From assembly GCA_026004395.1 (NCBI GenBank), contig BPJB01000001.1, positions 15,543 through 79,542 on the forward strand: 64,000 nt of DNA. Reading direction: 5' to 3'. The DNA is from Patescibacteria group bacterium. GTDB taxonomy: Bacteria; Patescibacteriota; Microgenomatia; Levybacterales; UBA12049. The stretch's first letter is position 1. Every line of letters starts with the position of its first letter. A program made the position numbers and the translations under genes. This document shows, piece after piece, positions 43,630 through 58,030 of this stretch. The notes under the pieces are model-generated. The model was not told the DNA's origin. It searched no databases and saw only the letters and a list, made by a program, of their open reading frames with translations.

Positions 43630-43704
43630 TCCGCGGTAGCTCAATGGTAGAGCAGGAAGCTGTTAACTTCAAGGTTCTAGGTTCGAGTCCTAGCCGCGGA
43701 GCCA
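43630..43704 (+). tRNA. tRNA-Asn (anticodon GUU), CCA encoded
   Basis: UCCGCGG/CCGCGGA acceptor, D arm GCUCAAUGGUAGAGC, anticodon loop CUGUUAA, T arm CUAGG-UUCGAGU-CCUAG, then GCCA. Confidence 0.85.
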
Positions 43705-44205
43705 AATTGTATGTTCAAAGGAAGCCGCCGACCCCCGCAAGGCGAAGTGGATTTTGATTGTTTCGAGTGAGTAAAGAATTTTAGAAAGAAACCTTTTGGC
43801 AAAAAAGTTTCTTTCAATTCCTTTTGATTTTTTGAGTCTGACAAGAAAAAATTTTAGAGTGTTTGAAATGTTTTCAAAGGAAAATTTAGAGCATACCTCT
43901 GGTAGTTCGTATCCAGCCCGGCACCCCGATTGAAAATCGTTATTTAAACGAAAAACAAGATTTTCGATATAGTTTTTATCAATCGAAATGCGCTCTAAAT
44001 TTTCCAGACAAAAATTTTCCAATCTTTCAGCGGAAATTTGTTTTACCGGGCAAGTTTGCCAATCCTGTCTTAGGGTTGAAGTACAGCGATAGTAATAATA
44101 TCTTTTTAATTTTTTGCCAGTTCTTTTATTGGTAAAACAAGATGTCATTTTAGAACTGCAATTTTCGCATTGGACCAATCCACCGAACAGAAAATTTCTG
44201 TACAT
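43690..44205 (-). pseudogene. large serine recombinase, C-terminal half only (zinc beta-ribbon + coiled coil + tail); catalytic domain absent
   Basis: FLFGGLVQCENCSSKMTSCFTNKRTGKKLKRYYYYRC…CPV matches the recombinase zinc-ribbon domain. No resolvase N-terminus. Its 3' end overlaps the tRNA-Asn 3' end. Confidence 0.65.
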
Positions 44206-44270
44206 AACCTAAGCGAAGAAGATTTAGTAAAGCTCACACACAGAACTGCTTTGCGCATACCACCATTTGT

Positions 44271-44630
44271 TTAGCTTGCATCGTCTATAGTTCTGGCGCG
44301 AAAGTTGATTATTTTTTTGAGTAGGCTAGGGGGGATCGGTTTGTCAGCAGTAAACTGCAGGGTACCTTTTGAACTCCGATACTTAACCAACTTTGGTCCG
44401 ACCGCATTGATCATTTCGTCGGAGGCTGGATATATGCTCATATGTTTGCTATGGGCAGCATAGTATATCAAAATCTTTTTGTGGTATTTGAAAGCGGGTA
44501 TACCATAGCTTATAATTTCCTCTACTTCTGGAAGCTGAGATTTTACTAAATTCCGAATCTTGATTAGCTCATCGCGATGTGACTCTGGCAAATCCTGTAA
44601 GTAGCCATCAACTGTTTGATGTTTTTTCAT
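44271..44630 (-). CDS. DUF1801 (YdhG-like) domain protein
   Basis: 119 aa; …ISYGIPAFKYHKKILIYYAAHSKHMSIYP… is typical of DUF1801. Confidence 0.7.
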   Translation of the reverse strand: MKKHQTVDGYLQDLPESHRDELIKIRNLVKSQLPEVEEIISYGIPAFKYHKKILIYYAAHSKHMSIYPASDEMINAVGPKLVKYRSSKGTLQFTADKPIPPSLLKKIINFRARTIDDAS

Positions 44631-44668
44631 AACCCAATTATATCAAATAGTAGCGATGCTGTATAGAT

Positions 44669-44812
44669 ATGACTAAAGAGGAGGTACTAGGTGGTACAGT
44701 GCACGAGCTGCCCACCGACCTGCGCAAAGCCTTGGCTGCCAATAAGGCGGTCTTAGCTAAATGGCAGAGCCTTACACCCCTGGCCCGCAACGAGTGGATT
44801 TGAGCTTTTAGT
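44669..44812 (+). pseudogene. YdeI/OmpD-associated-family N-terminal fragment inside a GC-rich (~58% GC) foreign segment
   Basis: 47-aa ORF MTKEEVLGGTVHELPTDLRKALAANKAVLAKWQSLTPLARNEWI* carrying the YdeI motif; it stops where YdeI proteins continue. Local GC is far above the window mean. Confidence 0.45.
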
Positions 44813-44990
44813 CAAACGAAATTAAGGAGTTCCTTGTTGTTGCGCGCGAATGGGCAGGGTGGGTCAAACGCAACTGTATTGGCGGCGCATTTCGCAAAGC
44901 GAAATACGAAATTCGGCGGCGGAAAAGCGAGGGTGGGCAAAAATTCCTTCCCCCAACCCCCTTCCTTTTTGCCCGCCCGAGCGTAATTTA

Positions 44991-45311
44991 TCAAAAATCC
45001 GGTTGCTGATTTTCCTTGGAAAAAGTTCGGATTTCGTTCAGAGTTCGGAGCCAGAGTTGACGAGAGGCTAAATTGGCTATCTTGTCAAAGGGGTTTAGAA
45101 AGTGGTATCGGACTTTTTTACCTTCTAACTCTAAGTTCTGAAGTGTTATTTTCAAAAGTAGTCGTTTTTCGTGAACTTCAGAACTCAAAAACAAATCATA
45201 AGCCTGATTAGCAAGTGTTAAAAGGTAGTTTGCTGTTAAATAATAGTTGTCTTCAGCTTTCTTAAGATTCGCTAGTTTAGTAAAATTTTTCATTAAAAAA
45301 TGCTTTGTCAA
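44991..45311 (-). pseudogene. serine-recombinase C-terminal-tail-like remnant ORF (repeat copy 1)
   Basis: …KRLLLKITLQNLELEGKKVRYHFLNPFDKIANLASRQLW… This sequence recurs in ORF 52865..53092 and in two further loci. Confidence 0.45.
45050..45186. repeat. ~135-bp repeat family, copy 1 (3' end of a recombinase-like gene)
   Basis: Read directly. Related copies at 52986..53108, 57682..57812 and a degenerate copy at 59931..59973. Confidence 0.8.
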
Positions 45312-45377
45312 ATCAATTTGTATTGTATTATACTATAAAGAAAAATAATTAAATATCTTTAATCAAAGTATTTAATT

Positions 45378-45755
45378 ATGAAATTTACTGAAATTGATCT
45401 TAATACAATTTATTTAGCTTTAAGTATTTTCTTGGCTATTTTAAATATTTACCAATTTTTTAAAAATAGAAGCGATGTAAAAATTCTCGATGGAATCTTA
45501 ACAATGTTACATAACACTTCAGAAAGCTTAAGAAATGCGCTTTTACAAATATCACAAAATCCCGATTCATTTACTGATAAAAAGGATGTTATAAACACAG
45601 TCGGGGCTGTTTCTCAGTTAGCTTCCGGAATGGTACAAGCAATCGAAGAACAAAGGTTTTATTCTTCAAAGAAAGAAGCTAAACAGATGAGGACTAAAAA
45701 ACAAGAAGAGTTTCAGAAAAAGATGAGTAGAATTTTAAAAAGATATAAACAATGA
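45378..45755 (+). CDS. hypothetical small membrane protein
   Basis: N-terminal TM helix; K/E-rich C-terminus. Confidence 0.35.
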   Translation: MKFTEIDLNTIYLALSIFLAILNIYQFFKNRSDVKILDGILTMLHNTSESLRNALLQISQNPDSFTDKKDVINTVGAVSQLASGMVQAIEEQRFYSSKKEAKQMRTKKQEEFQKKMSRILKRYKQ

Positions 45756-45773
45756 TCTCCCTCCAATAATTGA

Positions 45774-47564
45774 TTATACCTCTTTTGTAACCAAAACTTC
45801 TTCTCCTAACATATCAATTATTTTGACTGCCACTTTGGTTGGCTTTTCACTTATTTCAAGCTCATATTCGCCTTTTACTAAATCGCTCTGTCTTTCGGGA
45901 ACATCCGAGAAACCAATCTTGAATACTTCACCGTCGTAATCCGTATCAACCAGCACTACATCGATCATCGACCTGAAATCTGGAATTTTCTTCTGCAAGA
46001 GTCCTGGTTCAAGCTCCAAGCGCTTAATGATCGTAGGGGAAATAAAGGCTAAAATTTTAATCTTTACTTTGTCTTTGCCTATCCGTTTAATTTCCACTTC
46101 TGCTTTTGATGGTTCGTAACTCACAAAGTTTTTGTCTTTCAGGTCAAAGACAATAAACTGACGCATGCGTTTCTTGCTTCTGGTATCTTTATAGGGTTGC
46201 TTTTTATTCCATTCCTCAACCCAACCGTCTACCTTTGTCTCCCTGCCCAGTGAGATGACCACTACATCTCTATCCTCGTCTGGGCGCTTATTAAGCTCAT
46301 CAACGATTAGCTGCAGGTCAAGTAGCGTTAAGGGGTGATTGAAATCTATAATTTTGACCAGCTCGCCACTATCCCGCAGACCGTCAAAGAAAGTGTCTGT
46401 TTTAGTTTTAGTAATTCCGTATTGCTGGATAGCCAATTCTTTAGCTTCAGTCTTCAAGATTCTTAAATCGTAGTTATTAACCTTGTAAATTGCGAAAGTG
46501 GGGTATTTTGTTTCTTTTTGATCTTTGATGATTTTTTGTAATCTTTTACTTGTTACTTGAATTGCTCCCTTATTAACATCAACCCCAATCCACCGCCTAC
46601 CCAATTTATGTGCTACCGCACAGGTCGTTCCCGAACCAACAAAACAGTCTAAAACTAAGTCGTTTTCGTCAGATGACCCTTTAATAACTTTCTCTAATAA
46701 AGCCTCTGGTTTTTGTGTAGCATAATTAGTTCTTTCTATGGCTTGAGAATTAATGATTGCAATTTCCCAAACATCTTCTGGAAGCCTTCCTAATGGATTA
46801 ACCTTCACAATTCTACCAAAAGAGGTTGTGCCAGATTCTGCTTGTTTTATTGTGCCTTCTTTGTAAGGAGTCCTTACTAAATCGATGTTAAATTTATAAC
46901 TGCTTTTATTCTTACAATAGAGGAGAATTGTATCATGCTTATGTAAATATTCCTTTTTAACCGAGCCTGATGGGTCTTTATAATGCCATACAATCTCATT
47001 TATAAGATTTTCTTCTCCAAATATTTCATCCATTAAAACTTTAATGTAATGAACCATCCTGTAATCCAAGTGGATATAAATACTGCCTGTTTCTGCCAGT
47101 AATTCCTTCAGCAAAATTAACCGCTCATACATAAACTGGAAGTATTCATCCCGTTTCCAAATATCTTCATACATCGTTTGTTGAATTATCGATTCACTGT
47201 CTTCTTCGATCCTGCCCAAATCTTTTAAGCCCCGCAGTTCAACTTTTCTCATGTAGTCTTTGTTGCTGGCAAACGGAGGATCGATATAAATCAGGTCAAC
47301 CTTGCCTCTGAAGCCAAGTTCCAAAAGTGTTGCTAAGACTTCTTTATTATCTCCATGAAACAGAAGATTGTGCCAATTTTTTTCAAGCTCGCTGAATTTA
47401 GGGGTTTCTGGGAATTTATCTTCCTTCTGGGGGTCAAAGACTTCAATTAGTTGTGTAGGGAAGCCTGTGACATATTCTAACGGGTGTTTATTAACCCAAT
47501 GGAGTAGAGGTCTGCCTTTTGGTGTTTCAACTTTTATTTTTTTGTTTGATTTATCATCTGTCAT
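45774..47564 (-). CDS. mod: Type III restriction-modification N6-adenine DNA methyltransferase (Mod)
   Basis: Motif IV IYIDPPF, motif [12 protein letters not shown]; 596 aa; start overlaps the res stop by 4 nt. Confidence 0.85.
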
Positions 47565-47566
47565 AT

Positions 47567-50152
47567 TTATTTTTTGTGTTGGTAAATCCAGTTAAAAACT
47601 GGCATAACTTTACCAAATACCGACTCTCCTTCCTCTAAAAGCAGGAGTTCATACTTTATTTTATCAGGATTTATCGCTTCCAGCTCTTGCATCTCTTTTT
47701 CAGCTTCCTTAATCCTGTATTTTGGCGCTTTTACCTCCACGATTAAAGATCTACCATCTTTCTTGCGAATTAAAAAGTCGGGGGTATAACTGTGCCAGTC
47801 TCCCTTGTCGTCTTTGTATTCAAAGATTAAATCGGTTTTAGCGGGATCGTTAATTGCGCCTGTGTAATAAATGTCCTCAACATTATCGGGGTCTTCACCA
47901 AGTTTAATAAGCATACTCTCAAAAAACTCTCGTTCATACTCTGAGTCAAAATTGTAAGGGTCGTAATGAAAGCCAAAGAGCGGTAGTTGTCCAGCCTTTG
48001 CTTTGTAGTCCTTCAGCTCCAGCACATATTTCTTCAGAGAGGTTTTGTTAACCCTAATGTGGGTCACATAGGAGGTTTTGCCGTCAACAGTTTCTTCTTC
48101 AAACCCTTTCTGCTTGATAAGAGCCAGTGCTTCTTCGACTGTTTCATTGACCACTTTGTAGCGCATGGTTTGTTTTTCTATTTGGGTGCGGATAAGTTCC
48201 AGTTCAAACGCCCCAATTTCTCCGTCTGGGTATAAGTTTTGGAGCAGTTTATAAGTTTTTAGCGAGTCTAAGCGGTAAGCATGAGCCAAAACTACGGCAG
48301 CTTGGAACAGGTCGATTTTCCTGTCTGTTACCGCTCCCTTTTTAGTTCCCACTTCAACCAGCACCCCTTTTCTCTGGGCTTTGGACATGGAATAAATGGT
48401 CTTTTCAAAGGATTTGACCGTTTCTTTGCCTGGTTTATCGATTTTTAGACACTCTTGCGCTTTCAAGTCTTCTGGGACTATCTTTTGGATGAGCTTTTTG
48501 ATAAGCAAAGGCGGCAGTTCAATCTTTCTAAGAGTTACTTTAACTGTTACCGTGTCCGTAGAAACCCTGTTGAGATCATCCAACCCCTCACCAAAGGTTT
48601 CTTGCAACTGCCGATCAAGAATGGAGACATTGTCTTTTGAGAGGTAAATCTTGGCTTTTTTGGTGTTGCCATTGACTTGTCTTAAACATCGACTGGCAGC
48701 TTGCAAAACAAAGTTATTGCTTGAATTAAGTTTCCTTGCCAGAGCGGTAGCGAATAAAGATAAGCAGTTCCACCCTTCTGTGCCTTTGTTGACGAGCAGG
48801 AAGACTCGGTAGGGCAGTTTGGGATCGTTAATGCGGTTGTCAAAAAGGTCTTTAATCTCATCAGTTGACTTGTTATGCACTGGCAGTACAACTGATGGGT
48901 CAATTTTTAATGAGATGAGAGTTTGCTCAACAATAGGCTTAGCTTTTTCTAGATCATCGACCTGAGGGAAGTAGATAGCCAGCTTGGCATATTCGCCGCT
49001 CTCAATTTGAACATCTTTGTATTCTTGAAAAAAGTCTTTAACTACATCAACAATGAAATCATGATCAGATACATCGGAATAGGCAATGATGTTGCCTCTT
49101 ACTTCTTTTAAGATTCCATCCTCAATACCTTGTGATAGTCCATACCAATAAATAACATCTCGCAGAAGCTGTCTTTGGTAATAGGGTGTGCCTGTGGTGT
49201 TAACTACCGCTAAAAGATTGGTTTTCTCGGCAATGTAGTTGATTGTCTGTCTGACCCTCTTCAGGTCGCTTGCCAGCTCCTGTCCGTAGGTGTGATGGGC
49301 TTCATCTGAGAAGACTGCCAAGTGAGGGAGCGAGGTAATGGTTTGCAACCTTAAATTAGCCACCAGCTCTTTTGCTTCTTCAATTCCCAGCCTCAACTGC
49401 CCTGACAGGAAAGATTTGGGGATACTGTTCTTTTGAAGTCTTATTTTTTCAGTGTTGGTGACAATAACATTAAAGGAGCTGCCTCGGATAACGGGAATGT
49501 CTTTCTCGCCATCCCTGGTGTAGGTGAATTTAACATTGGTGATAAAAGATTTATAGAAACGAGGGGGAAGTATTTTGTCGTATGGTGTGTCAGAGATTTC
49601 TCTCAAAGCACCCAGTATGGTCTTGCCAGGTGCAAATACCAGGGCATTTTTGATAAATATGCCATCTTCTTCCTGATATTCCAAAGCCATCGCAAACTCG
49701 GTAGCGATGATGGAAGCTATAAGGATTGTCTTACCTGCTCCCATTGCCAATGCCAGGATATAACTGGGGTATGAGAGAGTGAGTGTTTCTCTTAATGCTT
49801 CAAGCCTGTATTTCTTAACAAATACATCGTTGGTTCTGACTTTATCAATAATGAGATCTAATCCACCTCCTGCTAATAAGAGATCTGTCAAATCTTCCTC
49901 TGACAAGCAGATGCCGAGTGCCTTTAATAGTTCTTTTCCTTGAAAGTATTCCTTGTAAAGATTGAAGATGTTTGGTGTGTTTTTGACTAAGCGTAAATAC
50001 CAGTAAGTTTCTAACGCCTCAAATTGTGCCTTTCTTAGAAAGTCATTCTGGTTATGCTGGAAAATGGTGGCAATAGCAGGATAAGAGGAAGGATAATCTT
50101 GCTGTCTCCAATTAGCAACATCTAATTTCAATTTTTGATAAAGATTGATCAT
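47567..50152 (-). CDS. res: Type III restriction enzyme Res subunit (SF2 helicase + PD-(D/E)xK nuclease)
   Basis: Walker [13 protein letters not shown] box FSDEAHH, C-terminal PDFLI…VEVK nuclease motif; 861 aa. Confidence 0.85.
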
Positions 50153-50340
50153 ACCTTTTGTTTTTGTATAAACTTATCAAGTTCTGCTTTATTGATACGA
50201 TATTGTTTCCCAATTTTGAAAGCCTGGAGCTTTCTTGCTTGTACCCAACGATACACAGTAAGATATGCAACCTTTAGTATGTCTGCTACTTCTCTAATTG
50301 TATAAAATTCCTCTACTTCTCTTTTATCCATATTTAACAT
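50149..50340 (-). CDS. small HTH DNA-binding protein (excisionase/AlpA-like fold); putative controller of the R-M operon
   Basis: 63 aa; YTIREVADILKVAYLTVYRWV HTH; stop overlaps the res start by 4 nt. Confidence 0.55.
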   Translation of the reverse strand: MLNMDKREVEEFYTIREVADILKVAYLTVYRWVQARKLQAFKIGKQYRINKAELDKFIQKQKV

Positions 50341-50356
50341 TATTTAACATCTTGCC

Positions 50357-50944
50357 TTAAATTGCAAGTAATCTTAATGGTTCAAATTTGTTTATCTGTT
50401 CTCTAAGTAGTGAGAATACGCTTGGCTCGTCAGCTTGGGTAAGGCTTTTCATTTCCTTGTTAAGACTATACCAAGCAGAGCTGCCGTATCGTTTGGTCAT
50501 TTCTCTAAATTCTCTTATGCCAATTTCCTCAAGCAGAACCCTCAAGCCCAGAATTTTCAGAATAGGTATCAGCTTGATTTTAGGATTTGCAATTAAAAAA
50601 CCAGTAAAAAACTTTTTAGGGCTTTCGTATTGATAGGTTAGTAAAGGCGGGTAGGCTTCTTCAATTTCTCTGATGTAGTGAAGTAAGACCTTTTTGGCTG
50701 TGTCTTGGTTAAAGATGTTTGTAAAAGTTGGCTCAAAGTCCTTATCTATAAGTTTAAGAATTTGGCTGATTTTTTGCCGTTTATTTAGCCTTATTTCAAC
50801 TCGCAAAATCTCAAAAGGTCTTTTTTGGGTGAGAATATCAAATAAGCCTAGTTGCAGGGCGTTGTCATTTTCTTCAGGCGTCAAAACTAACCCCTTTGAT
50901 TGGAATTTGGTTTTCTTAAGCTGAATAACTTTGTCGTTTTTCAT
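50357..50944 (-). CDS. hypothetical protein
   Basis: ORF track; same strand and operon as the R-M genes. No recognisable motif. Confidence 0.4.
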   Translation of the reverse strand: MKNDKVIQLKKTKFQSKGLVLTPEENDNALQLGLFDILTQKRPFEILRVEIRLNKRQKISQILKLIDKDFEPTFTNIFNQDTAKKVLLHYIREIEEAYPPLLTYQYESPKKFFTGFLIANPKIKLIPILKILGLRVLLEEIGIREFREMTKRYGSSAWYSLNKEMKSLTQADEPSVFSLLREQINKFEPLRLLAI

Positions 50945-51018
50945 TAAGCAAAGTCTATGAAATGGGGTGTAAGCTGAAATTGTATTGCAGTTAGCTAACA
51001 GTTAGCTTATGCGAGAAG

Positions 51019-51735
51019 TTAAAGATATTTGGGGTTTATCTGAACGGTTGATTTGGTATAAATCAAAAGGTCGTTAACGCCAGTTTTCTGGGCTATAAAT
51101 TTGGATAATCCGTCGCAAGCAGGATAAAATTTCTTTTGGTTTTCTTTTAATAAATCTAGGTCGGTAATGCCTTCAATCGTTTCTATAACCTCGTCCCAAG
51201 ACCACTCTTTTTTACGGCTTTTATCATCTTTTAGTAGTAATTCAAGGAGTTTAGCCCTAAAACTTTCTTTCTTGAATTTAACTTTTTTGCCTTCAATATC
51301 CAGCTCGCCTTTTTGGGCGCTATAGGTTACTTTAGGTTTTACTTTCGTTGAGTCTGGCGTAAGCGTCGCCTTTGGTTTTTCAGGCTCTTTATTAGATTTG
51401 TCTCTTCGTTCTAATTCGCTTCTAACTTTTTCCATAAAATCATAGAAGGGTTTTATATTAACAACAACTTTGATGCTGTCATCCCATCTGTGCATCATTG
51501 AGTCAATGTGCTTAAATTCTGAAAGAACACCCTCTTTATGAAGATACTTTACTGCTTCCCATCTACCCTCAATATACTCATCCCTAACGCCTGGTGTGTC
51601 ATAAGGAAAAAGTTCTTGGAAGTAAATTCTTGGCGGCAGAAGTGGGATAATCACGGTATTCTCTCTGTTCAATTGGACTTTCTCTTTTATTGCCAACATC
51701 GTATCAAATAATCTTAAGAGATTAAGATAGGTCAT
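51019..51735 (-). CDS. hypothetical protein; the reading frame continues upstream to an ATG at 52085 through one in-frame TAA (52033-52035)
   Basis: About 110 stop-free codons lie upstream of the annotated Met with no alternative start. Possible pseudogene. Confidence 0.4.
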   Translation of the reverse strand: MTYLNLLRLFDTMLAIKEKVQLNRENTVIIPLLPPRIYFQELFPYDTPGVRDEYIEGRWEAVKYLHKEGVLSEFKHIDSMMHRWDDSIKVVVNIKPFYDFMEKVRSELERRDKSNKEPEKPKATLTPDSTKVKPKVTYSAQKGELDIEGKKVKFKKESFRAKLLELLLKDDKSRKKEWSWDEVIETIEGITDLDLLKENQKKFYPACDGLSKFIAQKTGVNDLLIYTKSTVQINPKYL

Positions 51736-52124
51736 CTCACTGATGCCACTTTTCTGTTTGAGTAAGTAATTTTCATACCAGTCATCAAATCCTTCTGAGA
51801 CAGTAAGGAGAAAATAATCTATTGATGTGATTTCTAAATGTTGAAGCGGTTTTAATTCAGAAGGTATATCCTGTATTTGAATAATTTTTTCGTCATCTTG
51901 GAGTTTTAATAAGAAGTCGTGTATTTCCTGAAGTATTATTTGTTTAAGTTTATTGTCGGTTTTTGCATAAAGTTTAATGGGATGTCTTTTACGAGCAATT
52001 TTGCGGGCTTCATTTATTGTTTCAGGATTATATTAAGTTTTTCTTCGTATGTCATAGGTCATTACTTTTTCAATCTTATTTATCATATTTTATCAATTTT
52101 TGGTAAAATAGTCTTGATATAACT

Positions 52125-52862
52125 ATGTTTCAAAAATTAAAATCTTCAACATTACTTTCAAAAATAAATGTTATTAGCTCTTACTTTTGGTTTATAAGCA
52201 CGGTCTTTTTTATTACGATTATTTTCCTGTCTACAAAGGGCTTTACTATTGACCCCTGTTATGGTAAGGGTTGCTCCGAACACCATTATTTGTTACCTAT
52301 GCTTTCTTCATTTTTTGCGGGGTTGTTCTTCTTTGGGTTAACTGTATTTATGGGATTTTTGAGAGTTTTATTAAAAGCTGAAAAATGGAAACCCCCTATA
52401 AATCTTGGTTCTTGGAAGATTGGATTTGCAACATTTTTAGTGGTGTTTATTTCTAGTGTTTATGTCGTCGCTTTATTTAGAGGGAGTGCTGTTAGATGGG
52501 GTGGAAGTTATACAGGACAAGATTTATTTAATGCCGTCAATCAACATAGAAAATCACTAGGCTTAAAGGAAGTAAAGTTAAGTGAGGGTTTATGTGATAA
52601 TCTTGTGTCTCGTTGGCAAGCGGTAAAAGAAGGTCGACAACACGAAGGTTTTGATGATTGGATAAAACAAGAGGGTATTCAAACAAATTATGGTTATAAA
52701 GAACTTGTAGAGTTGTACATACAAGCTTTAACGCCCGCAGAAGCAATAACTTTTTGGTCTGGTAGTCCAGGTCACAGAATACAATTAGAAAACCCAAAGT
52801 GGATTGATGGTTGTGCTTATGCTAATGAGGGCTATGGTGTAGTGGTAATGGGCATAAAATAA
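52125..52862 (+). CDS. membrane protein with a C-terminal CAP/SCP (YkwD-like) domain
   Basis: Four TM helices, then a CAP-like C-terminus (SPGHRIQL…DGCAY). Confidence 0.55.
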   Translation: MFQKLKSSTLLSKINVISSYFWFISTVFFITIIFLSTKGFTIDPCYGKGCSEHHYLLPMLSSFFAGLFFFGLTVFMGFLRVLLKAEKWKPPINLGSWKIGFATFLVVFISSVYVVALFRGSAVRWGGSYTGQDLFNAVNQHRKSLGLKEVKLSEGLCDNLVSRWQAVKEGRQHEGFDDWIKQEGIQTNYGYKELVELYIQALTPAEAITFWSGSPGHRIQLENPKWIDGCAYANEGYGVVVMGIK

Positions 52863-52864
52863 TC

Positions 52865-53092
52865 TTACAATACAGCAAAGGCAGGCTTGGGTTGGCTAAT
52901 TCCTAAGTTTTCAAACGCAATTTTAAGGTCGTTTAGGCTTATATTAAACTCTAATCTATCGTTGCAGAATAAGTCTTTTAGGGGGAGCCAGAGTTGACGA
53001 GAGGCTAAATTGAATATATTGTCAAAGGGATTTATCCAGTTAAATCGGACTTTTTTACCTTTTAGTTCCAAGTTCTGAAGTGTTAAATTCAA
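52865..53092 (-). pseudogene. serine-recombinase C-terminal-tail-like remnant (repeat copy 2)
   Basis: MNLTLQNLELKGKKVRFNWINPFDNIFNLASRQLW… DNA repeat spans 52986..53108. Confidence 0.45.
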
Positions 53093-53128
53093 AAGTAGCC
53101 GTTTTTCATACTTGTTCTTAGTAATCCT

Positions 53129-53596
53129 TCAATTTATTAATTTACCTAGAGTTTTTAGCACTTTTGTTTCTCTATTTTCTTCCTTTGGCAAGTAACCAAT
53201 TAAACCGCTTTCTATGGCTTGATTACAAGCTATTGGAGCTTTTCTGCTTATTTTTAGAATTTCCGAACCAGGATTTCCTTGGAGGATTCTCATTTGATCA
53301 TGCTCGCTCATTCTTTTTGAGGAAGGAAGTATATTTTGGTATGATTTACAAAACAAATAGCAGTAAAGCCAATTTCTCTCCAGATTGCTTCTAATTCGTC
53401 TACCCTCAAAATACTTGGTAAGCATACTTGGTAAGCACAAACCTTTTTTTATGTCTTTCAAGAGAGATTTTTCATTCTCATCCATTGGTTCTCTTTCTAG
53501 GAACATGTCGTTTAGTACCACTCTTCCTGATGATTTAAGAACCCGATAAATTTCTTCCATAACTGAGTTTGTCATAAGAGTGAACATAACTCTCAC
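53129..53596 (-). pseudogene. class I SAM-dependent methyltransferase, C-terminal fragment
   Basis: Begins …MEEIYRVLKSSGRVVLNDMF, resembling methyltransferase motif III/post-II. No SAM-binding GxGxG N-terminus. Confidence 0.4.
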
Positions 53597-53854
53597 AAAA
53601 AATAACTAATCAAAAATTCCAGGAGGAAAAGCAGAATTATGATAATTGTTCAGTTACACCATATTATGGTGTAACTGAACATCTAACATTTTACGATCTA
53701 ACCTTACGGTGCCACTTCTTGCCACTTCGCAATTCTACTCTTTGATAGTTTTTTAGGGGAAATTAACTAAAAAGTCTGGGCGAAACTCAAAATATTCAGC
53801 AGGATAGATAGCATTGTTTTCTTAAGATTATCAAAGAGACCATTAAACCAAGAT

Positions 53855-55678
53855 TTATATAATCTCTATCATAAAATCTTTTGCCTCGGGAAAGGGAGCA
53901 TATCGTGGTGACTGCAATGAGGACATTAACTCAATTGTTGGCAATAATGGGAATTTGTTTCTAATTCTTCGTCCTCTGCTTTCTTGTTGTCTACGTTTTG
54001 TTACATGTTCCCATGTGTTTCTTCCATCAATCATTCTTTCTTCAAATACATGCACCAATGGTTTAATAAGAACAGGATTATCAAAACCACCAGAAATCAT
54101 TGATATACCCGTAGCATAACTTGGCATAAAGGCAGAAACTACTGCCTGTATTTCTGGATAATTGTTTTTTATGTGATTGAATGTAAGTGAAAACATGCTA
54201 CTACTTGTATTTCCAGGAGCGCCAGGGCGACTATAAAGTCTAGTTAGGTCATAGCAATAACAAGGGTTATAGCCTTGTATCAATAAAACATTTTGTTTGT
54301 ACGGACGATCAATCTTCTCCAATGCAAGAACTGAAAATGGTAAATCCTCCCCTACTATGTACAATCCGAAAGCAATATCAGCTCGGGGAGTATGAATATA
54401 ATGTAAATCTTGATGGAATTGCTTTGCAAATTCTGGATTAATTTCTCGGAATGCAAGTGGCACTAGTCCGGCTGTCGCTGTTACACCTTCTTCCTGTACT
54501 GCAAAGATTGCGTTTCCTCTTTTTTGTATCACCCATCCAGGTTCAGCAAACATTCCTGTACGGGTCAATATTCTTTCAACTGGAAGTGAGCTATTTTGCA
54601 ATCTTTGTTTGATGATTAGGTATTGTTCTTCAATCGTTGCAGCAAGTATCTTAGGATTTATCCTGAACTGTTGGATAAATTGTGCATCAAGATTCAAGAT
54701 ATTTCGCCAGTCAACATAAGCGCTATGATCCCGTAAGTAATTATTAAGTTGTGAGCCGTTAACAAAAACATCGGAAACTTCATAGGTTGTAAGGCGGAAA
54801 AGCGTTTGATATTTTAAATCTTGTGGATCACATAAAATATTATTTTTTTGGATATATTCGTCTACTGCAGCTGCAACCTGTTCTCGGGCATGTGACATTA
54901 GTGCATCTTTTGGCCAATTTACTAATCGGAACTTTGGAACCATAATGATTTCTCCCTTTGCTAAGGCGGTAGCTAATTCTCTACGCCTTCTTTCAATCTG
55001 TCCTTGTCTTACTACCTCTCTCAACACTCCAAAACGTATAGCTCCATGTTTCATTGTGGTAATTGCATGATCTGCCTTTTTCTTCATATTTACATTGTTA
55101 ACAACGTTAATTCCTTGAAATAGTATTCTTGGCCCGTTAACAGGGATTTGAGTGGGATTGTTTTCTTCTATAGCCAATTGAGTTTCTTGCTTAGCAAAGT
55201 CTTTTATCCACTGAAGCACTTTTCCTAATACCATAGAATCTCCTTCTAATTGTTGAATATCAGTGGTGAGTTGATCCTCGTATCTAACAGAATCAGCAAT
55301 AATATCTTGGTCAGTGCCATCTTGTAATCTTACATGTATTCGTAGTTCATTACCGTCACCTTTCTTAAATCTCATTCGTCCAAGTATTTCTTCTACCGTT
55401 TTCCCTCTTGCCTGTTTATTTTTTCTTCCAGCAGGCATTGGGATATGTTCTCTGCGCATAAGCCATGCCACCGCCCGAAGCACTTCATAAAATCGTACTG
55501 GAGTAAAACCTAAATCTCGGATCTGCTCAAATACATCTCGTAATTCTGGTTCTGTTAATCCATATGTGGTGAGTGATATATTAAATCTTCTCAATTGATC
55601 GAGCTTGGCTGATTTATCAAGTCTTCCAAAACTTTCACGAATTGGTTGATGAATAATTGGTGCTTCTTGTTTGCTCAT
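53855..55678 (-). CDS. large hypothetical protein (607 aa), no confidently recognisable domain
   Basis: ORF track; divergent from the adk/Ham1 pair. The C-terminal half has a Cys-containing segment (GYNPCYCYDLTRLYSRPGAPGNTSS). Confidence 0.5.
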   Translation of the reverse strand: MSKQEAPIIHQPIRESFGRLDKSAKLDQLRRFNISLTTYGLTEPELRDVFEQIRDLGFTPVRFYEVLRAVAWLMRREHIPMPAGRKNKQARGKTVEEILGRMRFKKGDGNELRIHVRLQDGTDQDIIADSVRYEDQLTTDIQQLEGDSMVLGKVLQWIKDFAKQETQLAIEENNPTQIPVNGPRILFQGINVVNNVNMKKKADHAITTMKHGAIRFGVLREVVRQGQIERRRRELATALAKGEIIMVPKFRLVNWPKDALMSHAREQVAAAVDEYIQKNNILCDPQDLKYQTLFRLTTYEVSDVFVNGSQLNNYLRDHSAYVDWRNILNLDAQFIQQFRINPKILAATIEEQYLIIKQRLQNSSLPVERILTRTGMFAEPGWVIQKRGNAIFAVQEEGVTATAGLVPLAFREINPEFAKQFHQDLHYIHTPRADIAFGLYIVGEDLPFSVLALEKIDRPYKQNVLLIQGYNPCYCYDLTRLYSRPGAPGNTSSSMFSLTFNHIKNNYPEIQAVVSAFMPSYATGISMISGGFDNPVLIKPLVHVFEERMIDGRNTWEHVTKRRQQESRGRRIRNKFPLLPTIELMSSLQSPRYAPFPEAKDFMIEII

Positions 55679-55770
55679 AAAAACACTTCAAACCTAAGCT
55701 GAAGTGTGGTATAATTATAGGATAACAAGGTGTAAAAATCAATTTTAACTAGACTCATGTTTCGTAAACT

Positions 55771-56388
55771 ATGAGGTATATAGAAAGATATAGACCAAAA
55801 GAAGGAGAAGGACATAATAAGATACTTGTTATAACTGGCGTTCCCGGATCAGGAAAAGATTTTCTTTTGTCGGAAGCAGTAAAACAAGGTATAATCCCTT
55901 CTTCAGTTAGGATGTTCAGCTTCGGAGAAGAATTATTTGCTTATTTAAAAACAATCCATCCACAGATACAGATAAGAGACGACGTTCGAACATTATTAAC
56001 TCAAGATGATGTTTGGCAAGGGGTAATTGGAGTAATAGACAAATTAATACAAGCACAACCAGCAATACTTAATACCCATGTTGTTTATCGGCAAAGAGAA
56101 AGCCTTATTACAAATCCCAATGTTGATAAGAGAATGCACCCCGCAGGTTATTTATTCGTATGGAGTGAACCTAATCAAATAGCAGAATGGCGAGCACGCG
56201 ACATATCGAGGGGGAGACCGCCTGAATCAATAGATGACATCGCATTGCATCAAGATATTGCATTGGAAGTTGTATCTGTGGTGGCAAGACATACAGGTGC
56301 ATGTCTCAAAACTGTTTGGAATCGAACTGATAATGTTGCAGATAATTTAGCTCTAATACAGGAACGAGCAAGAGAACTCACCCCTTAA
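55771..56388 (+). CDS. archaeal-type adenylate kinase (AdkA-like P-loop nucleotide kinase)
   Basis: ILVITGVPGSGKDF P-loop. Alignable along its length to archaeal AdkA (…FSFGEELF…, …NTH…, …IALHQD…). Confidence 0.65.
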   Translation: MRYIERYRPKEGEGHNKILVITGVPGSGKDFLLSEAVKQGIIPSSVRMFSFGEELFAYLKTIHPQIQIRDDVRTLLTQDDVWQGVIGVIDKLIQAQPAILNTHVVYRQRESLITNPNVDKRMHPAGYLFVWSEPNQIAEWRARDISRGRPPESIDDIALHQDIALEVVSVVARHTGACLKTVWNRTDNVADNLALIQERARELTP

Positions 56389-56418
56389 TTTCCCACCATT
56401 TTTCAGTATAATATTACA

Positions 56419-56976
56419 ATGAAGAAAATTTATTTTGTTACTACAAATCAGTATAAGTTCGAAAAATTCACTCAAGCGATTAGCATTCCAGGTATTGAAA
56501 TTGAACAATTATCAGAAGAAACACCGGAAATACAAGCACCTAATAACCGTCAAATTGCAGAATTCTCGGCCTGGTTTACTGCTCAGAAAATTAATCTTCC
56601 TGTTATAACAGAAGATGTTGGCTTGTACATACAAACTTTAAGAGGTTTCCCCGGTCCATACCTTAATCAGATTGAAAAATGGATAGAGACAGATGGTTTC
56701 TTGCAGCTTCTACTTAACAAAAAAGATCGATCAGCATATTGGGAATACGCAATTTCCTACTGTGAACCTAGACAAACTCCTAAAACATTTTATACACATC
56801 AAAAGGGAAGCATAGCAAAAGAGGCAAAAGGAAACAGCGGTTGGTATATGGATAAAATTTTTATTCCAGAAGGACAAGTAAAAACTATTTCAGAATTATT
56901 AGATAACAGAGAGTATGTTAGAAATGATGACCATTATCTGCAATTAAAAGAATATTTATTAAAACTGGGAAAATAA
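56419..56976 (+). CDS. Ham1/ITPA-family non-canonical purine NTP pyrophosphatase (eukaryote/archaea-like)
   Basis: YFVTTNQYKFEKF, ITEDVGLYIQTLRGFPGPY, DKSAYW, GWYMDKIFIPEGQVKTISEL. These track human ITPA/Ham1 more closely than bacterial RdgB. Confidence 0.78.
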   Translation: MKKIYFVTTNQYKFEKFTQAISIPGIEIEQLSEETPEIQAPNNRQIAEFSAWFTAQKINLPVITEDVGLYIQTLRGFPGPYLNQIEKWIETDGFLQLLLNKKDRSAYWEYAISYCEPRQTPKTFYTHQKGSIAKEAKGNSGWYMDKIFIPEGQVKTISELLDNREYVRNDDHYLQLKEYLLKLGK

Positions 56977-57113
56977 TCTTTCCTACTTCCCTACGTGTCA
57001 TATTACGATACATTGTATAGAGAGGTTATGTTTTTGTTTTAGATATTCGGCTGGTGTCTGATAACCCGACTGTCTTAATCTTACCTTGAGGTTATAGTTT
57101 ATCAATTAATCAG

Positions 57114-57272
57114 TTAGTTTCTCTTTAAGGTTCTTGACATCACCAAAGAGGTAGCATCTCTGAAGACCTTGGCTTTTATCTTACCGTTGAATCTCTCAAC
57201 CATACCATTTGTCCCCGCCTGCGTCCTTCCGAATCGGAGGACTTCGAGGTGGGCAGGCAGGGGTGTCTGAAT
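57114..57272 (-). pseudogene. DDE (rve) transposase C-terminal remnant
   Basis: Minus-strand translation …LRFGRTQAGTNGMVERFNGKIKAKVFRDATSLVMSRTLKRN*. No upstream body. Confidence 0.5.
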
Positions 57273-57681
57273 TTAATAGTTTCGTGTTTTATCTTTTCTT
57301 TCTGGCAGAGTTTATCAAAGGGATGAGTCTTCTTTGTTTTTTATTCTTGGGTAAGAAATTGTGTCAACCAAGAAACTCCAAACTTACGAGCTAAAACACT
57401 TATGGGTAGCAAGCCTTGACTGAATCTCCTTCCTTATGAGATAGTTAGCTCTGGCATTCTGGTGTAATCTCTGCAACATAGTTGTTAAGACATTATATCC
57501 TTAACAACGTATCGTAATCATACAGTTATTTATATTTTAAAATAATTTTTTATACAGTATCTTAATAAATAAAATATAGTGGAATCAGAGGTGGGATAAT
57601 TTATGCGGTAGCATACATTCTCAAATCAGGGAGATGTAAATATGCTCATTTTGCTGTTGTATAATAGTTCTAACGCTGTTT

Positions 57682-57812
57682 ACGATGTGGAGCCAGGCTT
57701 AACAAGAGGCTAAATTGGCTATCTTGTCAAAAGGATTTATCCAGTCATATCGGGCTATTTTGCCCTTTATCTATAAGTTCTGAAGTGTCATCTTCAAAAG
57801 TAGCCGTTTTTC
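57682..57812. repeat. ~135-bp repeat family, copy 3 (no associated ORF)
   Basis: gccaggcttaacaagaggctaaattggctatcttgtcaaaagg…aagttctgaagtgtcatcttcaaaagtagccgtttttcgtgg. Confidence 0.75.
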
Positions 57813-58030
57813 GTGGACTTTAAGAAATCTCCAAGAGTTTCACTGTGTTTAAAATCAGGTTTTCAGTTATTTTTTTTAGTTTGAGAGTACTTTGGATAAA
57901 TTTAATTAATTTTCAATTCAATATTCTCTTTCTAAAATCAGACAAAAGTTTTTAAGATTGAATGATGAGATCTAGGTAAAGTAATAGCGCTATAATAACT
58001 ACCTTTTGTTATATAATATTATTTAATAGT

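What the first reader, a model, noticed from the sequence alone, without database searches (positions are those of the whole stretch)
50149..52085. Two orphan genes co-transcribed upstream of the Type III R-M operon, one continuing through an in-frame TAA
- On the minus strand the order is orphan(51019..52085) -> orphan(50357..50944) -> HTH(50149..50340) -> res -> mod.
- HTH, res and mod overlap by 4 nt each, so they are translationally coupled.
- The larger orphan has about 110 stop-free, coding-like codons upstream of its annotated Met, back to an ATG at 52085. A single TAA at 52033-52035 interrupts them.
- This is either a nonsense-inactivated gene or a substitution error.
- Unknown genes embedded in an R-M operon on an island are candidates for an accessory defence or regulatory function.
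Basis: seen in the sequence. Interest (0 to 1): 0.55.

Follow-up and report, generated by a model that had tools for sequence, protein, structure and literature searches.

The report
Broken backbone genes of mobile island
The two "orphan" genes are damaged leftovers of a small mobile DNA element, common in ultra-small Patescibacteria, that inserts at the tRNA-Asn gene and carries a restriction-modification system as its cargo.

Summary
The gene order, the 4-nt overlaps and the stop-free upstream stretch are real, but the lesion was misread. Homologues of the larger orphan (about 346 aa) start MTYEEKLNIIL. In the window that start lies in another frame (ATG 52055). A 1-nt deletion near 52021-52028 joins it to the long frame. 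The TAA at 52033-52035 is only out-of-frame sequence.

The 195-aa orphan is a chimera. A 962-bp deletion at a 10-nt microhomology fused the first 25 codons of a small ORF to the C-terminal half of a ~390-aa protein, removing a SpoVG-like gene. A CAA>TAA nonsense then cut off the end.

Intact copies in about 20 other Patescibacteria contigs share one layout: ORF-A, small ORF, SpoVG, ~390-aa protein, HTH_17, variable restriction-modification cargo, large serine recombinase, tRNA-Asn. By fold and motifs the ~390-aa protein resembles Rep_trans/G2P rolling-circle initiators. ORF-A ends in an OmpR-type winged helix, and conserved 11-bp tandem repeats lie just downstream of its gene.

The window copy (45047-52983) has also lost its recombinase. 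It is a decayed, immobile island that kept its R-M cargo. I found no published description of this element family.

The parts
43630..43704 (+). tRNA-Asn(GTT), the integration target. Its 3' end GGAGCCA is the att core.
   Evidence: ARAGORN and Rfam tRNA at 67.5 bits. The same tRNA abuts the recombinase 3' end in L003/4, L006/7, L015, L018, L019 and L024.
43690..44205 (-). Fragment (171 aa) of another serine recombinase whose ORF ends ..IWLRG* inside the tRNA. It is a remnant of the tRNA-proximal element E1 (43705-45046).
   Evidence: Pfam Zn_ribbon_recom, E = 1.1e-10; sequence.
44991..45311 (-). C-terminal remnant (homology 45278..45048, Rec residues 412-488) of this element's own large serine recombinase. 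The first ~410 residues are missing.
   Evidence: tblastn with L006 Rec: 61% identity, E = 8e-23; alignment A5.
45047..45068 (+). Junction J1: att core GGAGCCA plus recombinase 3' sequence. This is the tRNA-proximal boundary of the element.
   Evidence: Exact 22-nt repeat GGAGCCAGAGTTGACGAGAGGC, also present at 52984-53005; 0 expected by chance. It lies within a 124-nt direct repeat of 86% identity.
45378..45755 (+). 125-aa ORF of unknown function, on the opposite strand, lying where the recombinase body should be.
   Evidence: no family hits.
45774..47564 (-). mod, a Type III-like N6/N4 DNA methyltransferase (596 aa). Cargo; appears intact.
   Evidence: Pfam N6_N4_Mtase, E = 4e-57. PADLOC MTase_III, E = 3.6e-71, covering profile positions 72-609 of 616.
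47567..50152 (-). res-like gene (861 aa): ResIII helicase with a C-terminal TnsA/NOV_C-like nuclease. Cargo; overlaps mod and HTH by 4 nt each.
   Evidence: Pfam ResIII, E = 3e-6, and Tn7_TnsA-like_N, E = 4e-5. PADLOC REase_III, E = 2e-4.
50149..50340 (-). HTH_17 (excisionase-family) DNA-binding protein. It is the last constant backbone gene and sits directly before the cargo slot.
   Evidence: Pfam HTH_17, E = 4e-17. TIGR01764, 59 bits against a cut-off of 28.8. Present after the ~390-aa gene in nearly all loci that extend that far, whatever the cargo (no match in L017).
50357..50944 (-). ORF-B (195 aa), a deletion chimera. Codons 1-25 come from the small ORF. The rest corresponds to residues ~208-380 of the ~390-aa Rep-like protein. 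It ends in a derived TAA (50359-50357, CAA in relatives); the ancestral stop is at 50326-50324.
   Evidence: tblastn: small ORF residues 1-25 match 50944..50870, and B390 residues 192-389 match 50935..50330. Sequences. The exact chimera occurs only in this MAG.
50868..50877 (-). Deletion junction: the 10-nt microhomology CTGAAGAAAA. It is present once here but twice in intact relatives (L006 3002-3011 and 3964-3973). The 962 bp lost held the 3' half of the small ORF, the SpoVG-like gene and the first ~207 codons of the Rep-like gene.
   Evidence: blastn of the window against L006, L002 and L009.
50945..51018 (-). Conserved 74-nt spacer. It holds the tandem repeat AGCTAACTG-TT-AGCTAACTG (51007-50988, 11-bp period) and a TACAAT -10-like box (50984-50979). 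Putative operator and promoter of the small-ORF...cargo operon.
   Evidence: 84-91% DNA identity to L006, L002 and L009. The repeat is present in every ORF-A locus, and is replaced by different repeats in L027, whose C-terminal domain is only 25% identical.
51019..52055 (-). ORF-A pseudogene. The true start is ATG 52055-52053, giving 11 homologous residues (MTYEEKLNIIL) in frame 1. A 1-nt deletion within 52021-52028 shifts the frame, and the remaining 335 codons run to the stop at 51021-51019.
   Evidence: Alignments A1 and A4; translations. 177 homologues, mostly 344-350 aa, cover 99% of the joined product.
52125..52862 (+). 245-aa membrane protein with a weak CAP-domain match, in the variable accessory region between the recombinase tail and ORF-A.
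   Evidence: Pfam CAP, E = 0.007, below the cut-off. The same position holds AbiEii, SocA_Panacea or DUF5655 genes in other copies.
52865..53164 (-). Recombinase 3' piece (Rec residues 432-526). Upstream of the core it belongs to the next, older element E3. Downstream of the core (52983..52865) it is this element's own recombinase tail (PLKDLFCNDRLEF...). Junction J2 core is at 52984-53005.
   Evidence: tblastn: 60% identity, E = 4e-25; alignment A5; repeat.
57690..57821 (-). A further recombinase fragment (Rec residues 445-488), marking the far end of element E3 in the tandem array.
   Evidence: tblastn: 73% identity, E = 1e-13.

Best explanation
The finding lies inside a decayed, immobilised copy (window 45047-52983, 7.9 kb) of a family of small integrative elements of Patescibacteria.

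Intact members read as follows. First comes attL, which holds the last ~40 codons of the recombinase gene. Next is a short accessory region. Then come ORF-A (~346 aa), a small ORF (~54 aa), a SpoVG-like gene, a ~390-aa Rep-like protein ('B390') and an HTH_17 protein. After that is a cargo slot that almost always holds a restriction-modification module. Last is a large serine recombinase whose 3' end crosses the att core (TG)GCTCC(CCC) into the 3' end of tRNA-Asn.

Inferred workings of an intact element:
- The recombinase integrates and excises it.
- B390, a Rep_trans/G2P-type nicking enzyme, initiates rolling-circle replication and/or transfer of the excised circle.
- ORF-A, a multi-winged-helix protein with an OmpR/PhoB-type C-terminal domain, binds the 11-bp-spaced AGCTAAC repeats just downstream of its own gene. 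In that way it controls the promoter of the overlapping small-ORF-SpoVG-B390-HTH-cargo operon.

In this genome the mobility and replication functions are destroyed:
- The recombinase is reduced to a ~100-aa tail.
- ORF-A carries a 1-nt deletion after codon 11.
- A 962-bp microhomology deletion fused the small ORF to the C-terminal half of B390. This removed SpoVG and the predicted catalytic residues.
- B390 also acquired a CAA>TAA stop.

The HTH-res-mod cargo and the operator/promoter spacer are intact. The R-M system has therefore been fixed in the chromosome, and the two 'orphans' are its dead vehicle.

Shown: the lesions, the conserved architecture, the tRNA-Asn target and the cargo variability. 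Inferred: the biochemical roles of ORF-A, B390 and the HTH protein.
For: Lesions:
- Frameshift.
- Chimera and 10-nt junction.
- Nonsense at the ORF-B end.
- Recombinase fragments.
- Identical sequence in a second assembly.

Architecture:
- tblastn plus ARAGORN over 24 loci gives the same order wherever the contig extends far enough, with tRNA-Asn at the recombinase end in 8 loci (6 distinct elements) plus the window.
- attL and attR share 5-10 nt of core.

Cargo:
- Types seen are Type III, EcoRI-methylase + GmrSD/HNH, Type IIG/I MTase + S, Dcm + EcoRII, Dcm + unknown, and MTase + small REase. In all, 11 of 12 distinct cargos hold a methyltransferase.
- res of the closest backbone relative is unrelated.

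B390:
- 7 of 46 diverse members hit Pfam Phage_CRI (G2P). One scores 29.9 bits against a cut-off of 21.7. There are also weak Rep_trans hits.
- Invariant residues D3, E98, Y191-D-K193 and E234 fall in the same order and similar spacing as the D72, D177, Y252-x-K254 and E280 shown to be essential in the MOBT relaxase RelSt3 (PMC6499999).

ORF-A:
- AF2 model with pLDDT 81.8.
- The repeats are conserved, and they co-vary with the domain in L027.
Against: - No excised circle or empty site was observed; no contig had terminal overlaps. Mobility is therefore inferred from architecture and from many independent insertions at one tRNA.
- B390 has no significant Pfam hit in most members, and a profile search against PDB sequences found nothing relevant. 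The AF2 model is poor for residues 145-225, which include Y191.
- The catalytic-residue mapping rests on order and spacing, not on superposition.
- ORF-A binding to the repeats rests on conservation and a single co-variation case.
- Apart from the 1-nt deletion, ORF-A shows no further decay; by eye it is ~96% identical to P0001 over the N-terminal ~100 residues. The lesion is therefore either very recent or not real.
- The second assembly probably uses the same PacBio HiFi reads (PMC9671151), so it is not a fully independent confirmation.
Confidence: 0.8

Rival explanations
1. The missing base in ORF-A is a sequencing or assembly artefact. On this view the organism has an intact 346-aa ORF-A.
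For: It is the only lesion in ORF-A, and the downstream frame shows no decay. The genome comes from PacBio HiFi reads assembled with metaFlye, and indels are the main HiFi error type (own knowledge). The Logan contig probably derives from the same library.
Against: Two different assemblers give the identical sequence over 7,895 bp. The site is at most a 2-nt homopolymer. The same element carries three other independent inactivating lesions: the 962-bp deletion, the nonsense codon and the loss of the recombinase. Decay of ORF-A is therefore expected.
Confidence: 0.07
2. The gene starts at the ATG near 52085 and is interrupted by a TAA nonsense (or read-through) codon. The two orphans are accessory defence or regulatory genes belonging to the Type III R-M operon.
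For: The TAA is in frame with the long ORF, and an ATG lies 17 codons upstream. The genes are tightly packed with HTH-res-mod.
Against: The 17 upstream codons (MINKIEKVMTYDIRRKT) match no homologue. All homologues start MTYEEKL..., which the window encodes in another frame from ATG 52055. The backbone genes recur with unrelated cargos. PADLOC gives no hit for either protein.
Confidence: 0.02
3. The remnants are still functional. ORF-A is expressed through a -1 ribosomal frameshift, through re-initiation, or as a 238-aa product from ATG 51735. The in-frame small-ORF::B390 C-terminal chimera has been co-opted, for example as an origin-binding inhibitor of incoming sibling elements or as a regulator of the R-M operon.
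For: The deletion fusion is in frame and keeps the native start, operator and promoter spacer. The chimera retains the helical C-terminal domain, which gives a weak winged-helix hit in one member. Neither ORF has accumulated further stops.
Against: There is no slippery heptamer in the 16-nt window where the shift would have to occur. More than 100 homologues are single ORFs. The chimera is private to this MAG and has itself lost its last 10 residues to a nonsense codon. An in-frame outcome has a 1-in-3 chance.
Confidence: 0.08
4. The element family is a filamentous-phage (inovirus-like) prophage or satellite remnant, comparable to RS1 of CTXphi, rather than a plasmid-like or mobilisable island. 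On this view B390 is a phage gpII-type replication protein.
For: The only Pfam family reached above cut-off is Phage_CRI, the G2P N-terminal domain. The four best BFVD matches are full-length unnamed viral proteins, E = 2e-8 to 7e-5. The elements are small, integrated and replicate by a rolling-circle type of protein.
Against: No copy holds a morphogenesis ATPase, a coat-like small hydrophobic protein or any other virion gene (gene tables). There are no relatives in 50,697 phage records or in IMG/VR. The solved structures that match best are plasmid Rep_trans proteins.
Confidence: 0.12

Closest known systems
Integrative and mobilisable elements (IMEs) of Firmicutes that encode a recombinase plus a Rep_trans/MOBT protein, such as the IME_oriT family (PMC7563843; review PMC5704250)
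   Same: Both are small (<10 kb) integrated elements with a site-specific recombinase, a Rep_trans-superfamily protein, no mating-pore genes and adaptive cargo. In IME_oriTs the Rep_trans protein was shown to be the relaxase, and the authors suggest that, as in Tn916 and ICEBs1, it may also drive rolling-circle maintenance.
   Different: - Here the host phylum is Patescibacteria.
- The Rep-like protein is so divergent that most members miss PF02486 and PF05144.
- The companion genes (ORF-A, small ORF, SpoVG-like) have no counterpart in IMEs.
- The cargo is nearly always an R-M module in a fixed slot after an HTH_17 gene.
- The recombinase ORF crosses attP.
- No oriT or helper element is known.
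Rep_trans rolling-circle initiators (RepD/RepC of the pT181 family, RepSTK1; PDB 4cij, 4cwc) and MOBT relaxases (RelSt3, NicK, Tn916 Orf20)
   Different: About 10% sequence identity. B390 has an extra ~150-residue helical C-terminal domain and lacks the N-terminal HTH of MOBT relaxases. The window copy lacks the whole catalytic part.
OmpR/PhoB-family winged-helix effector domains (Trans_reg_C)
   Different: ORF-A has no receiver domain and no Pfam Trans_reg_C hit. Its N-terminal two-thirds are other winged-helix-like domains. It is not a two-component response regulator.
Integrases whose gene is split by integration (SSV1-type tyrosine integrases of archaeal viruses; own knowledge)
   Same: attP lies inside the recombinase ORF, so integration separates the 3' end of the gene from its body.
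   Different: Here the enzyme is a large serine recombinase. Only the last ~36-40 codons are detached, so the integrated gene probably still encodes an active enzyme.
Mobile R-M units and defence islands at tRNA genes (general concept; for example pipolins, PMC11551731)
   Same: A conserved mobility backbone carries exchangeable defence cargo and builds tandem arrays at one tRNA hotspot.
   Different: The backbone proteins are different. The element is much smaller, and its cargo is restricted almost entirely to methyltransferase-containing modules.

Membership tests
Rep_trans / G2P (PF02486, PF05144) rolling-circle initiators: parent family B390 | Characteristic fold: a two-lobed central beta-sheet decorated with helices | tested here: met
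Rep_trans / G2P: parent family B390 | Match to the Pfam family models above the curated cut-off | tested here: inconclusive
   7 of 46 diverse members hit PF05144 (best E = 5e-7). P0408 scores 29.9 bits against a cut-off of 21.7. PF02486 is reached only weakly (E = 0.026). Most members, including L006 and L003, have no hit.
Rep_trans / G2P: parent family B390 | Three separated acidic metal ligands plus a catalytic Tyr in a Y-x-K motif (PMC6499999, PMC7563843) | tested here: inconclusive
   D3, E98, Y191-D192-K193 and E234 are invariant in 46 members that share down to 32% identity. Their order and spacing (0/95/188/231) resemble RelSt3 D72/D177/Y252-K254/E280 (0/105/180/208). This was not checked by structural superposition or by activity.
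Rep_trans / G2P: window ORF-B itself | Presence of the catalytic residues | tested here: not met
   The chimera keeps only residues ~208-380. D3, E98 and Y191-D-K193 lie in the deleted 962 bp.
OmpR/PhoB response regulators | Trans_reg_C winged-helix DNA-binding domain | tested here: met
OmpR/PhoB response regulators | N-terminal receiver (REC) domain with a phospho-acceptor Asp | tested here: not met
   No Response_reg hit. In the model the N-terminal parts are helix/strand winged-helix-like units. ORF-A is therefore not filed as a response regulator.
Large-serine-recombinase integrative element | Recombinase with Resolvase + Recombinase + Zn_ribbon_recom domains | tested here: met
   Met in relatives (L006, L009, L026). 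In the window only fragments remain.
Large-serine-recombinase integrative element | Defined att sites: a short shared core at both ends and a specific target | tested here: met
   A core (TG)GCTCC(CCC) of 5-10 nt lies at attL and attR in L007, L009, L019, L021 and L027. The target is the tRNA-Asn 3' end in 8 loci (6 distinct elements) plus the window. The window has an exact 22-nt repeat at both ends.
Large-serine-recombinase integrative element | Demonstrated excision or a circular form | tested here: inconclusive
   No contig with terminal overlap among 28 loci. L006/L008 show a full-length Rec followed by ORF-A, which fits either a tandem junction or a circle.
Integrative mobilisable element (IME) | Own relaxase and oriT, and a helper conjugative pore | not testable with these tools
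   B390 is a candidate relaxase by analogy with MOBT. A TrwB/DUF87-type ATPase is encoded at window 24614-26971. No oriT or transfer data exist.
Type III restriction-modification (the cargo) | Mod methyltransferase plus a Res helicase-nuclease | tested here: met
   Mod: PADLOC MTase_III, E = 3.6e-71, near full length. Res: ResIII helicase (E = 3e-6), a PD-(D/E)xK-type C-terminus (TnsA-like, E = 4e-5) and a weak REase_III hit (E = 2e-4). The Res assignment is weaker than the Mod assignment.
Programmed -1 ribosomal frameshift | Slippery X XXY YYZ site in the overlap, and conservation of the two-frame arrangement in homologues | tested here: not met
   The overlap window 52032-52017 (TATAATCCTGAAACAA) has no slippery heptamer. 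The homologues are single ORFs.
Stop-codon read-through or recoding of TAA | Homologous residues on both sides of the stop in one frame | tested here: not met
   The residues upstream of the TAA in that frame (..VMTYDIRRKT) do not align with any homologue beyond the chance MTY.
Inovirus / filamentous prophage | Morphogenesis ATPase (pI/Zot) and coat proteins | tested here: not met
   These are absent from all element gene tables. There are no relatives in phage or IMG/VR collections.
MADS (methylation-associated defence system), MAD1 HTH | NCBIfam NF047737 above its cut-off, with the other MAD genes present | tested here: not met
   The HTH scores 52.6 bits against a cut-off of 80. No other MAD components are present in the window operon.

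The most novel reading that the evidence does not exclude
The ~390-aa family has at least 1,250 clusters at 50% identity and lies outside Pfam and NCBIfam. It may be the 'very different relaxase' that a 2025 survey noted could remain to be found, after detecting no relaxase for most of the widespread monoderm-type (MPF_FATA) T4SS of Patescibacteria (PMC12102498). Under this reading these 6-10 kb tRNA-Asn elements would be true mobilisable elements. They would excise with a recombinase whose gene is re-completed on excision. They would be nicked by a divergent MOBT-like enzyme. They would then ride the chromosomal T4SS, moving restriction-modification systems between ultra-small bacteria. The window also encodes a TrwB/DUF87-type ATPase about 17 kb away.
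Probability: 0.15. Interest if true: 0.8.

Novelty: new variant of a known kind. Interest (0 to 1): 0.5.

Why it matters
For this genome the result is mostly tidying:
- Two 'hypothetical proteins' are pseudogene remnants.
- The Type III R-M system is stranded cargo.
- The region next to tRNA-Asn is a graveyard of at least three such elements.

The wider value is the family that the remnants point to:
- It is an apparently undescribed, abundant, compact integrative element of Patescibacteria with a fixed six-gene backbone.
- It has a dedicated slot that almost always carries an R-M module. This gives a concrete route for R-M exchange in a phylum said to rely on R-M rather than CRISPR.
- Two large protein families gain testable functions. 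One is a divergent Rep_trans/G2P-like nicking enzyme. The other is an OmpR-fold DNA-binding regulator with a recognisable operator.
- It offers a candidate answer to why most Patescibacteria T4SS clusters appear to lack a relaxase.

Tried and rejected
- Pfam, PHROGs, NCBIfam and PADLOC scans of the two window proteins, and of full-length ORF-A and B390, gave nothing significant.
- Profile searches of B390 alignments against PDB sequences gave no relevant hit.
- tblastn of B390 against 50,697 phage records and 72,556 plasmids gave no match. Two IMG/VR scans found no relatives.
- A search for circular contigs by terminal overlaps found none in 28 loci. L026 and L027 turned out to be integrated copies with short flanks.
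- Foldseek against AFDB50 was unavailable.
- Promoter and terminator scans were not above chance and were used only to note the absence of a minus-strand terminator.
- Rfam found only the tRNA.
- Shorter hits to ORF-B (226-306 aa) might have shared the chimera. They are simply fragments of full-length B390.
- TAA recoding or an alternative genetic code was considered and rejected, because the true N-terminus is in another frame.
- A first translation was in the wrong frame, but it revealed the real N-terminus.
- Literature searches found no description of this element family.

Full report
**1. Observation**

- On the minus strand the ORFs run as follows: a long frame ending at 51019, then 50357..50944 (195 aa), then 50149..50340 (63 aa, HTH_17), then 47567..50152 (861 aa, ResIII-type), then 45774..47564 (596 aa, N6_N4 methyltransferase). 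HTH/res and res/mod each overlap by 4 nt.
- In the long frame the first canonical start is ATG 51735. The frame is open for 99 further codons upstream, to a TAA at 52035-52033. That TAA is preceded by 17 codons from an ATG at 52086-52084.
- A 99-codon stop-free run in this A+T-rich sequence is not expected by chance. P is about 4.5e-4 from composition, and 12 of 20,000 shuffles were stop-free.
- So the sequence facts hold, with an off-by-one on the ATG.

**2. The real lesion in the larger gene (ORF-A)**

- The joined 337-aa product has 177 homologues. Most are 344-350 aa and cover 99% of it, so the extension is genuine coding sequence.
- All homologues begin MTYEEKL(N/D)(I/L).... In the window this N-terminus is encoded from ATG 52055-52053 in a different frame: MTYEEKLNIILKQ*, with the stop at 52016-52014.
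- The long frame picks up the homologous sequence at ...ETINEARKIARK. DNA alignment with the closest relative places a single-base gap in ATAA-TCCTGA against ATAATTCTTGA, at window ~52021-52028.
The ATG at 52086 is irrelevant.
- There is no slippery heptamer in the 16-nt overlap, and the homologues are single ORFs. I therefore reject a programmed frameshift.
- An independent k-mer assembly (Logan, run DRR290133) is 100% identical to window 45119..53013.
- The genome is a Patescibacteria MAG, named 'KatS3mg101' in the NCBI record of the identical 195-aa protein. The Katase hot-spring study used PacBio HiFi reads and metaFlye (PMC9671151). The second assembly probably uses the same reads, so the deletion is likely real but not independently re-sequenced.

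**3. The smaller gene (ORF-B) is a chimera**

- In other contigs ORF-A is followed after a 74-nt spacer by three genes: a 54-75-aa ORF, a SpoVG-like gene and a 380-390-aa protein, here called B390.
- Window ORF-B starts after the same 74-nt spacer. Its first 25 residues (MKNDKVIQLKKTKFQSKGLVLTPEE) match the small ORF. The rest (NDNALQLGLFD...) matches B390 from about residue 208.
- At DNA level both parents contain CTGAAGAAAA. The window has one copy, at 50877-50868. In L006 the two copies are 962 bp apart. A microhomology deletion therefore removed the 3' half of the small ORF, the SpoVG-like gene and the first ~207 codons of B390.
- Relatives end ...LLAIQDKMLNNDKYN*. The window reads ...LLAI*GKMLNNVKYG*. 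This is a CAA>TAA nonsense at 50359-50357, with the ancestral stop at 50326-50324 overlapping the HTH start. An in-frame TAA does exist in this locus, but in the other gene.
- The chimera is private to this MAG. The other short database hits are fragments of full-length proteins.

**4. The element**

- I ran tblastn with six backbone proteins, plus ARAGORN, over 24 loci from metagenomes and GTDB genomes. Wherever the contig is long enough, the order is the same. It runs: a short piece matching the last ~40 residues of a large serine recombinase (Rec); 0.5-3 kb of variable genes; ORF-A; small ORF; SpoVG; B390; HTH_17; 0.9-4.5 kb of cargo; Rec residues 1 to ~490; and a tRNA-Asn(GTT) gene on the opposite strand that overlaps the Rec 3' end.
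- attL and attR share 5-10 nt, (TG)GCTCC(CCC), which is the complement of the tRNA 3' end GGGGGAGCCA.
- The Rec ORF therefore runs across attP. Integration detaches its last ~36-40 codons. At a tandem junction (L006/L008) a full 528-aa Rec is seen directly upstream of ORF-A.
- The window carries tRNA-Asn at 43630-43704. It also has an exact 22-nt repeat, GGAGCCAGAGTTGACGAGAGGC, at 45047-45068 and 52984-53005. Rec fragments lie at 45048-45278, 52871-53164 and 57690-57821.
- I read this as a tandem array of three elements: E1 (43705-45046), E2 (45047-52983, which contains the finding) and E3 (52984 to ~57690). All three are degraded.
- E2's own recombinase is reduced to its last ~100 residues, so E2 cannot move by itself.

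**5. Cargo**

The slot after HTH_17 holds the following:
- Type III-like res+mod in the window.
- An unrelated Type III mod+res in L002.
- EcoRI-type methylase + GmrSD/HNH in L003.
- Type IIG/I-like MTase + S subunit in L006, L019 and L026.
- A fused MTase-S in L009.
- Dcm + EcoRII in L018.
- Dcm + an unknown protein in L017.
- N6_N4 MTase + an 842-aa protein in L024.
- A small REase-like protein + MTase in L027.
- An RrnaAD-type methyltransferase in L013/L015.
- In one case, L025, a Zn-ribbon/trypsin-like protein.

The HTH is therefore a backbone gene, not a part of any particular R-M system. The R-M genes are interchangeable cargo.

**6. What the backbone proteins probably do**

B390:
- Homologues number 1,877 in the word-indexed search and 1,250 cluster representatives at 50% identity. 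No Pfam or NCBIfam family is assigned.
- Seven of 46 diverse members hit Pfam Phage_CRI (G2P N-terminal). One is above the curated cut-off, and there are weak Rep_trans hits.
- Invariant residues D3, E98, Y191-D-K193 and E234 mirror, in order and spacing, the three acidic metal ligands and the catalytic Y-x-K of the MOBT relaxase RelSt3 (PMC6499999).
- I conclude, at about 75% confidence, that B390 is a Rep_trans/G2P-superfamily nicking enzyme. Window ORF-B lacks all of these residues except E234.

ORF-A:
- That domain is the most conserved part of the protein.
- The 74-nt spacer just downstream is 84-91% identical among elements. It carries AGCTAACTG-TT-AGCTAACTG (11-bp period), followed by TACAAT.
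- In L027 the equivalent protein shares only 25% identity in this domain, and the repeats are replaced by a different pair.
- I infer that ORF-A binds these repeats and controls the downstream operon. Whether it activates or represses is unknown.

HTH_17:
- It belongs to the excisionase-type family (TIGR01764).
- It could be a directionality factor or a cargo regulator. This was not resolved.

**7. Comparison and novelty**

- The nearest described things are the small IMEs of Firmicutes that combine a recombinase with a Rep_trans/MOBT protein (PMC7563843, PMC5704250).
- The present family differs in host phylum, in all companion genes, in the recombinase ORF crossing attP, and in its near-exclusive R-M cargo.
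- It is not an inovirus. It has no morphogenesis or coat genes, and no relatives in the phage or IMG/VR collections. The rolling-circle protein does, however, have unnamed viral structural relatives.
- Literature searches found general reports of R-M-bearing genomic islands in Patescibacteria (PMC12455944) but no description of this element.
[quoted passage not shown] B390 is a candidate, and that is my most novel admissible reading (probability about 0.15).

**8. Verdict**

- Its interest comes from the apparently undescribed element family and the two unannotated protein families that it exposes.
- Interest 0.5. Novelty: new variant of a known kind.

Noticed in passing
window 43630-57821; loci L006, L008, L019: The large serine recombinase ORF runs across attP. 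Integrated copies stop at about residue 490, inside tRNA-Asn. The last ~36-40 codons (PLKDLFCN..LEF...) lie at the other end of the element. A full 528-aa ORF appears only at a tandem junction, or perhaps a circle junction. Whether the tail affects directionality is unknown.
   Followed up: partly
window 52984-57821: The neighbouring degraded element E3 carries a 607-aa protein with a Mom-family domain (53855-55678, E = 7e-7), an AAA_17 kinase-like gene (55771-56388), a 185-aa ORF (56419-56976) and a 155-aa ORF with no family hit (53129-53596). This may be a DNA-modification cargo.
   Followed up: partly
window 52040-52075; same position in L002, L003, L006, L012-L018, L022, L023: The DNA around the ORF-A start, GAAAA(A/T)GTAATGACCTATGAC(N)TACGAAGAAAAA, is almost invariant. 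This holds even between elements whose ORF-A proteins are 39-65% identical, and includes ~15 nt upstream of the ATG and a near-duplicate ATGACCTATGAC. Its function is unexplained; it could be a promoter for a leaderless mRNA, an operator or an origin.
   Followed up: partly
L009 17029-17100 and L021 16645-16720: A tRNA 3' half abuts the recombinase, but ARAGORN finds no tRNA. A 2026 paper reports tRNA-Asn genes of Patescibacteria that were missed because of group I introns (PMC13011429). That could be the case here.
   Followed up: no
window 24614-26971: A 785-aa protein with TrwB_AAD_bind / DUF87 (HerA/VirB4-type) ATPase signatures. It is probably part of the Patescibacteria T4SS and lies about 17 kb from the tRNA-Asn island.
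   Followed up: no
window 52125-52862; L003 9446-9898; L027 273-1630; L009 9006-9929: A second variable slot lies between the recombinase tail and ORF-A, mostly on the opposite strand. It holds a CAP-like membrane protein in the window, SocA_Panacea in L003, AbiEii plus a partner in L027, and DUF5655 in L009.
   Followed up: partly
loci L013, L016, L018, L022, L024, L025 (genome contigs): Several MAG records that carry this Patescibacteria-type element are titled as uncultured Gammaproteobacteria, Pseudomonadales or Chromatiales. This may reflect taxonomic mislabelling or bin contamination. Genuine presence outside Patescibacteria was not checked.
   Followed up: no
L013 12854-13741, L015: One cargo is a lone RrnaAD-type (Erm/KsgA-like) methyltransferase, E = 1e-47, which also matches PADLOC mad2. 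It is unclear whether it methylates DNA or rRNA.
   Followed up: no
L009, L019, L021 and proteins P0004, P0008, P0103: About a quarter of ORF-A homologues are 462-482 aa long, with an extra ~125-residue N-terminal domain fused in front of the conserved MTYE(E/Q)KL start.
   Followed up: no
window 44271-44803: The E1 remnant holds a DUF1801 gene (44271-44630) and a 44-aa OmdA/YdeI fragment (44669-44803). These are probably cargo debris of the tRNA-proximal element.
   Followed up: no
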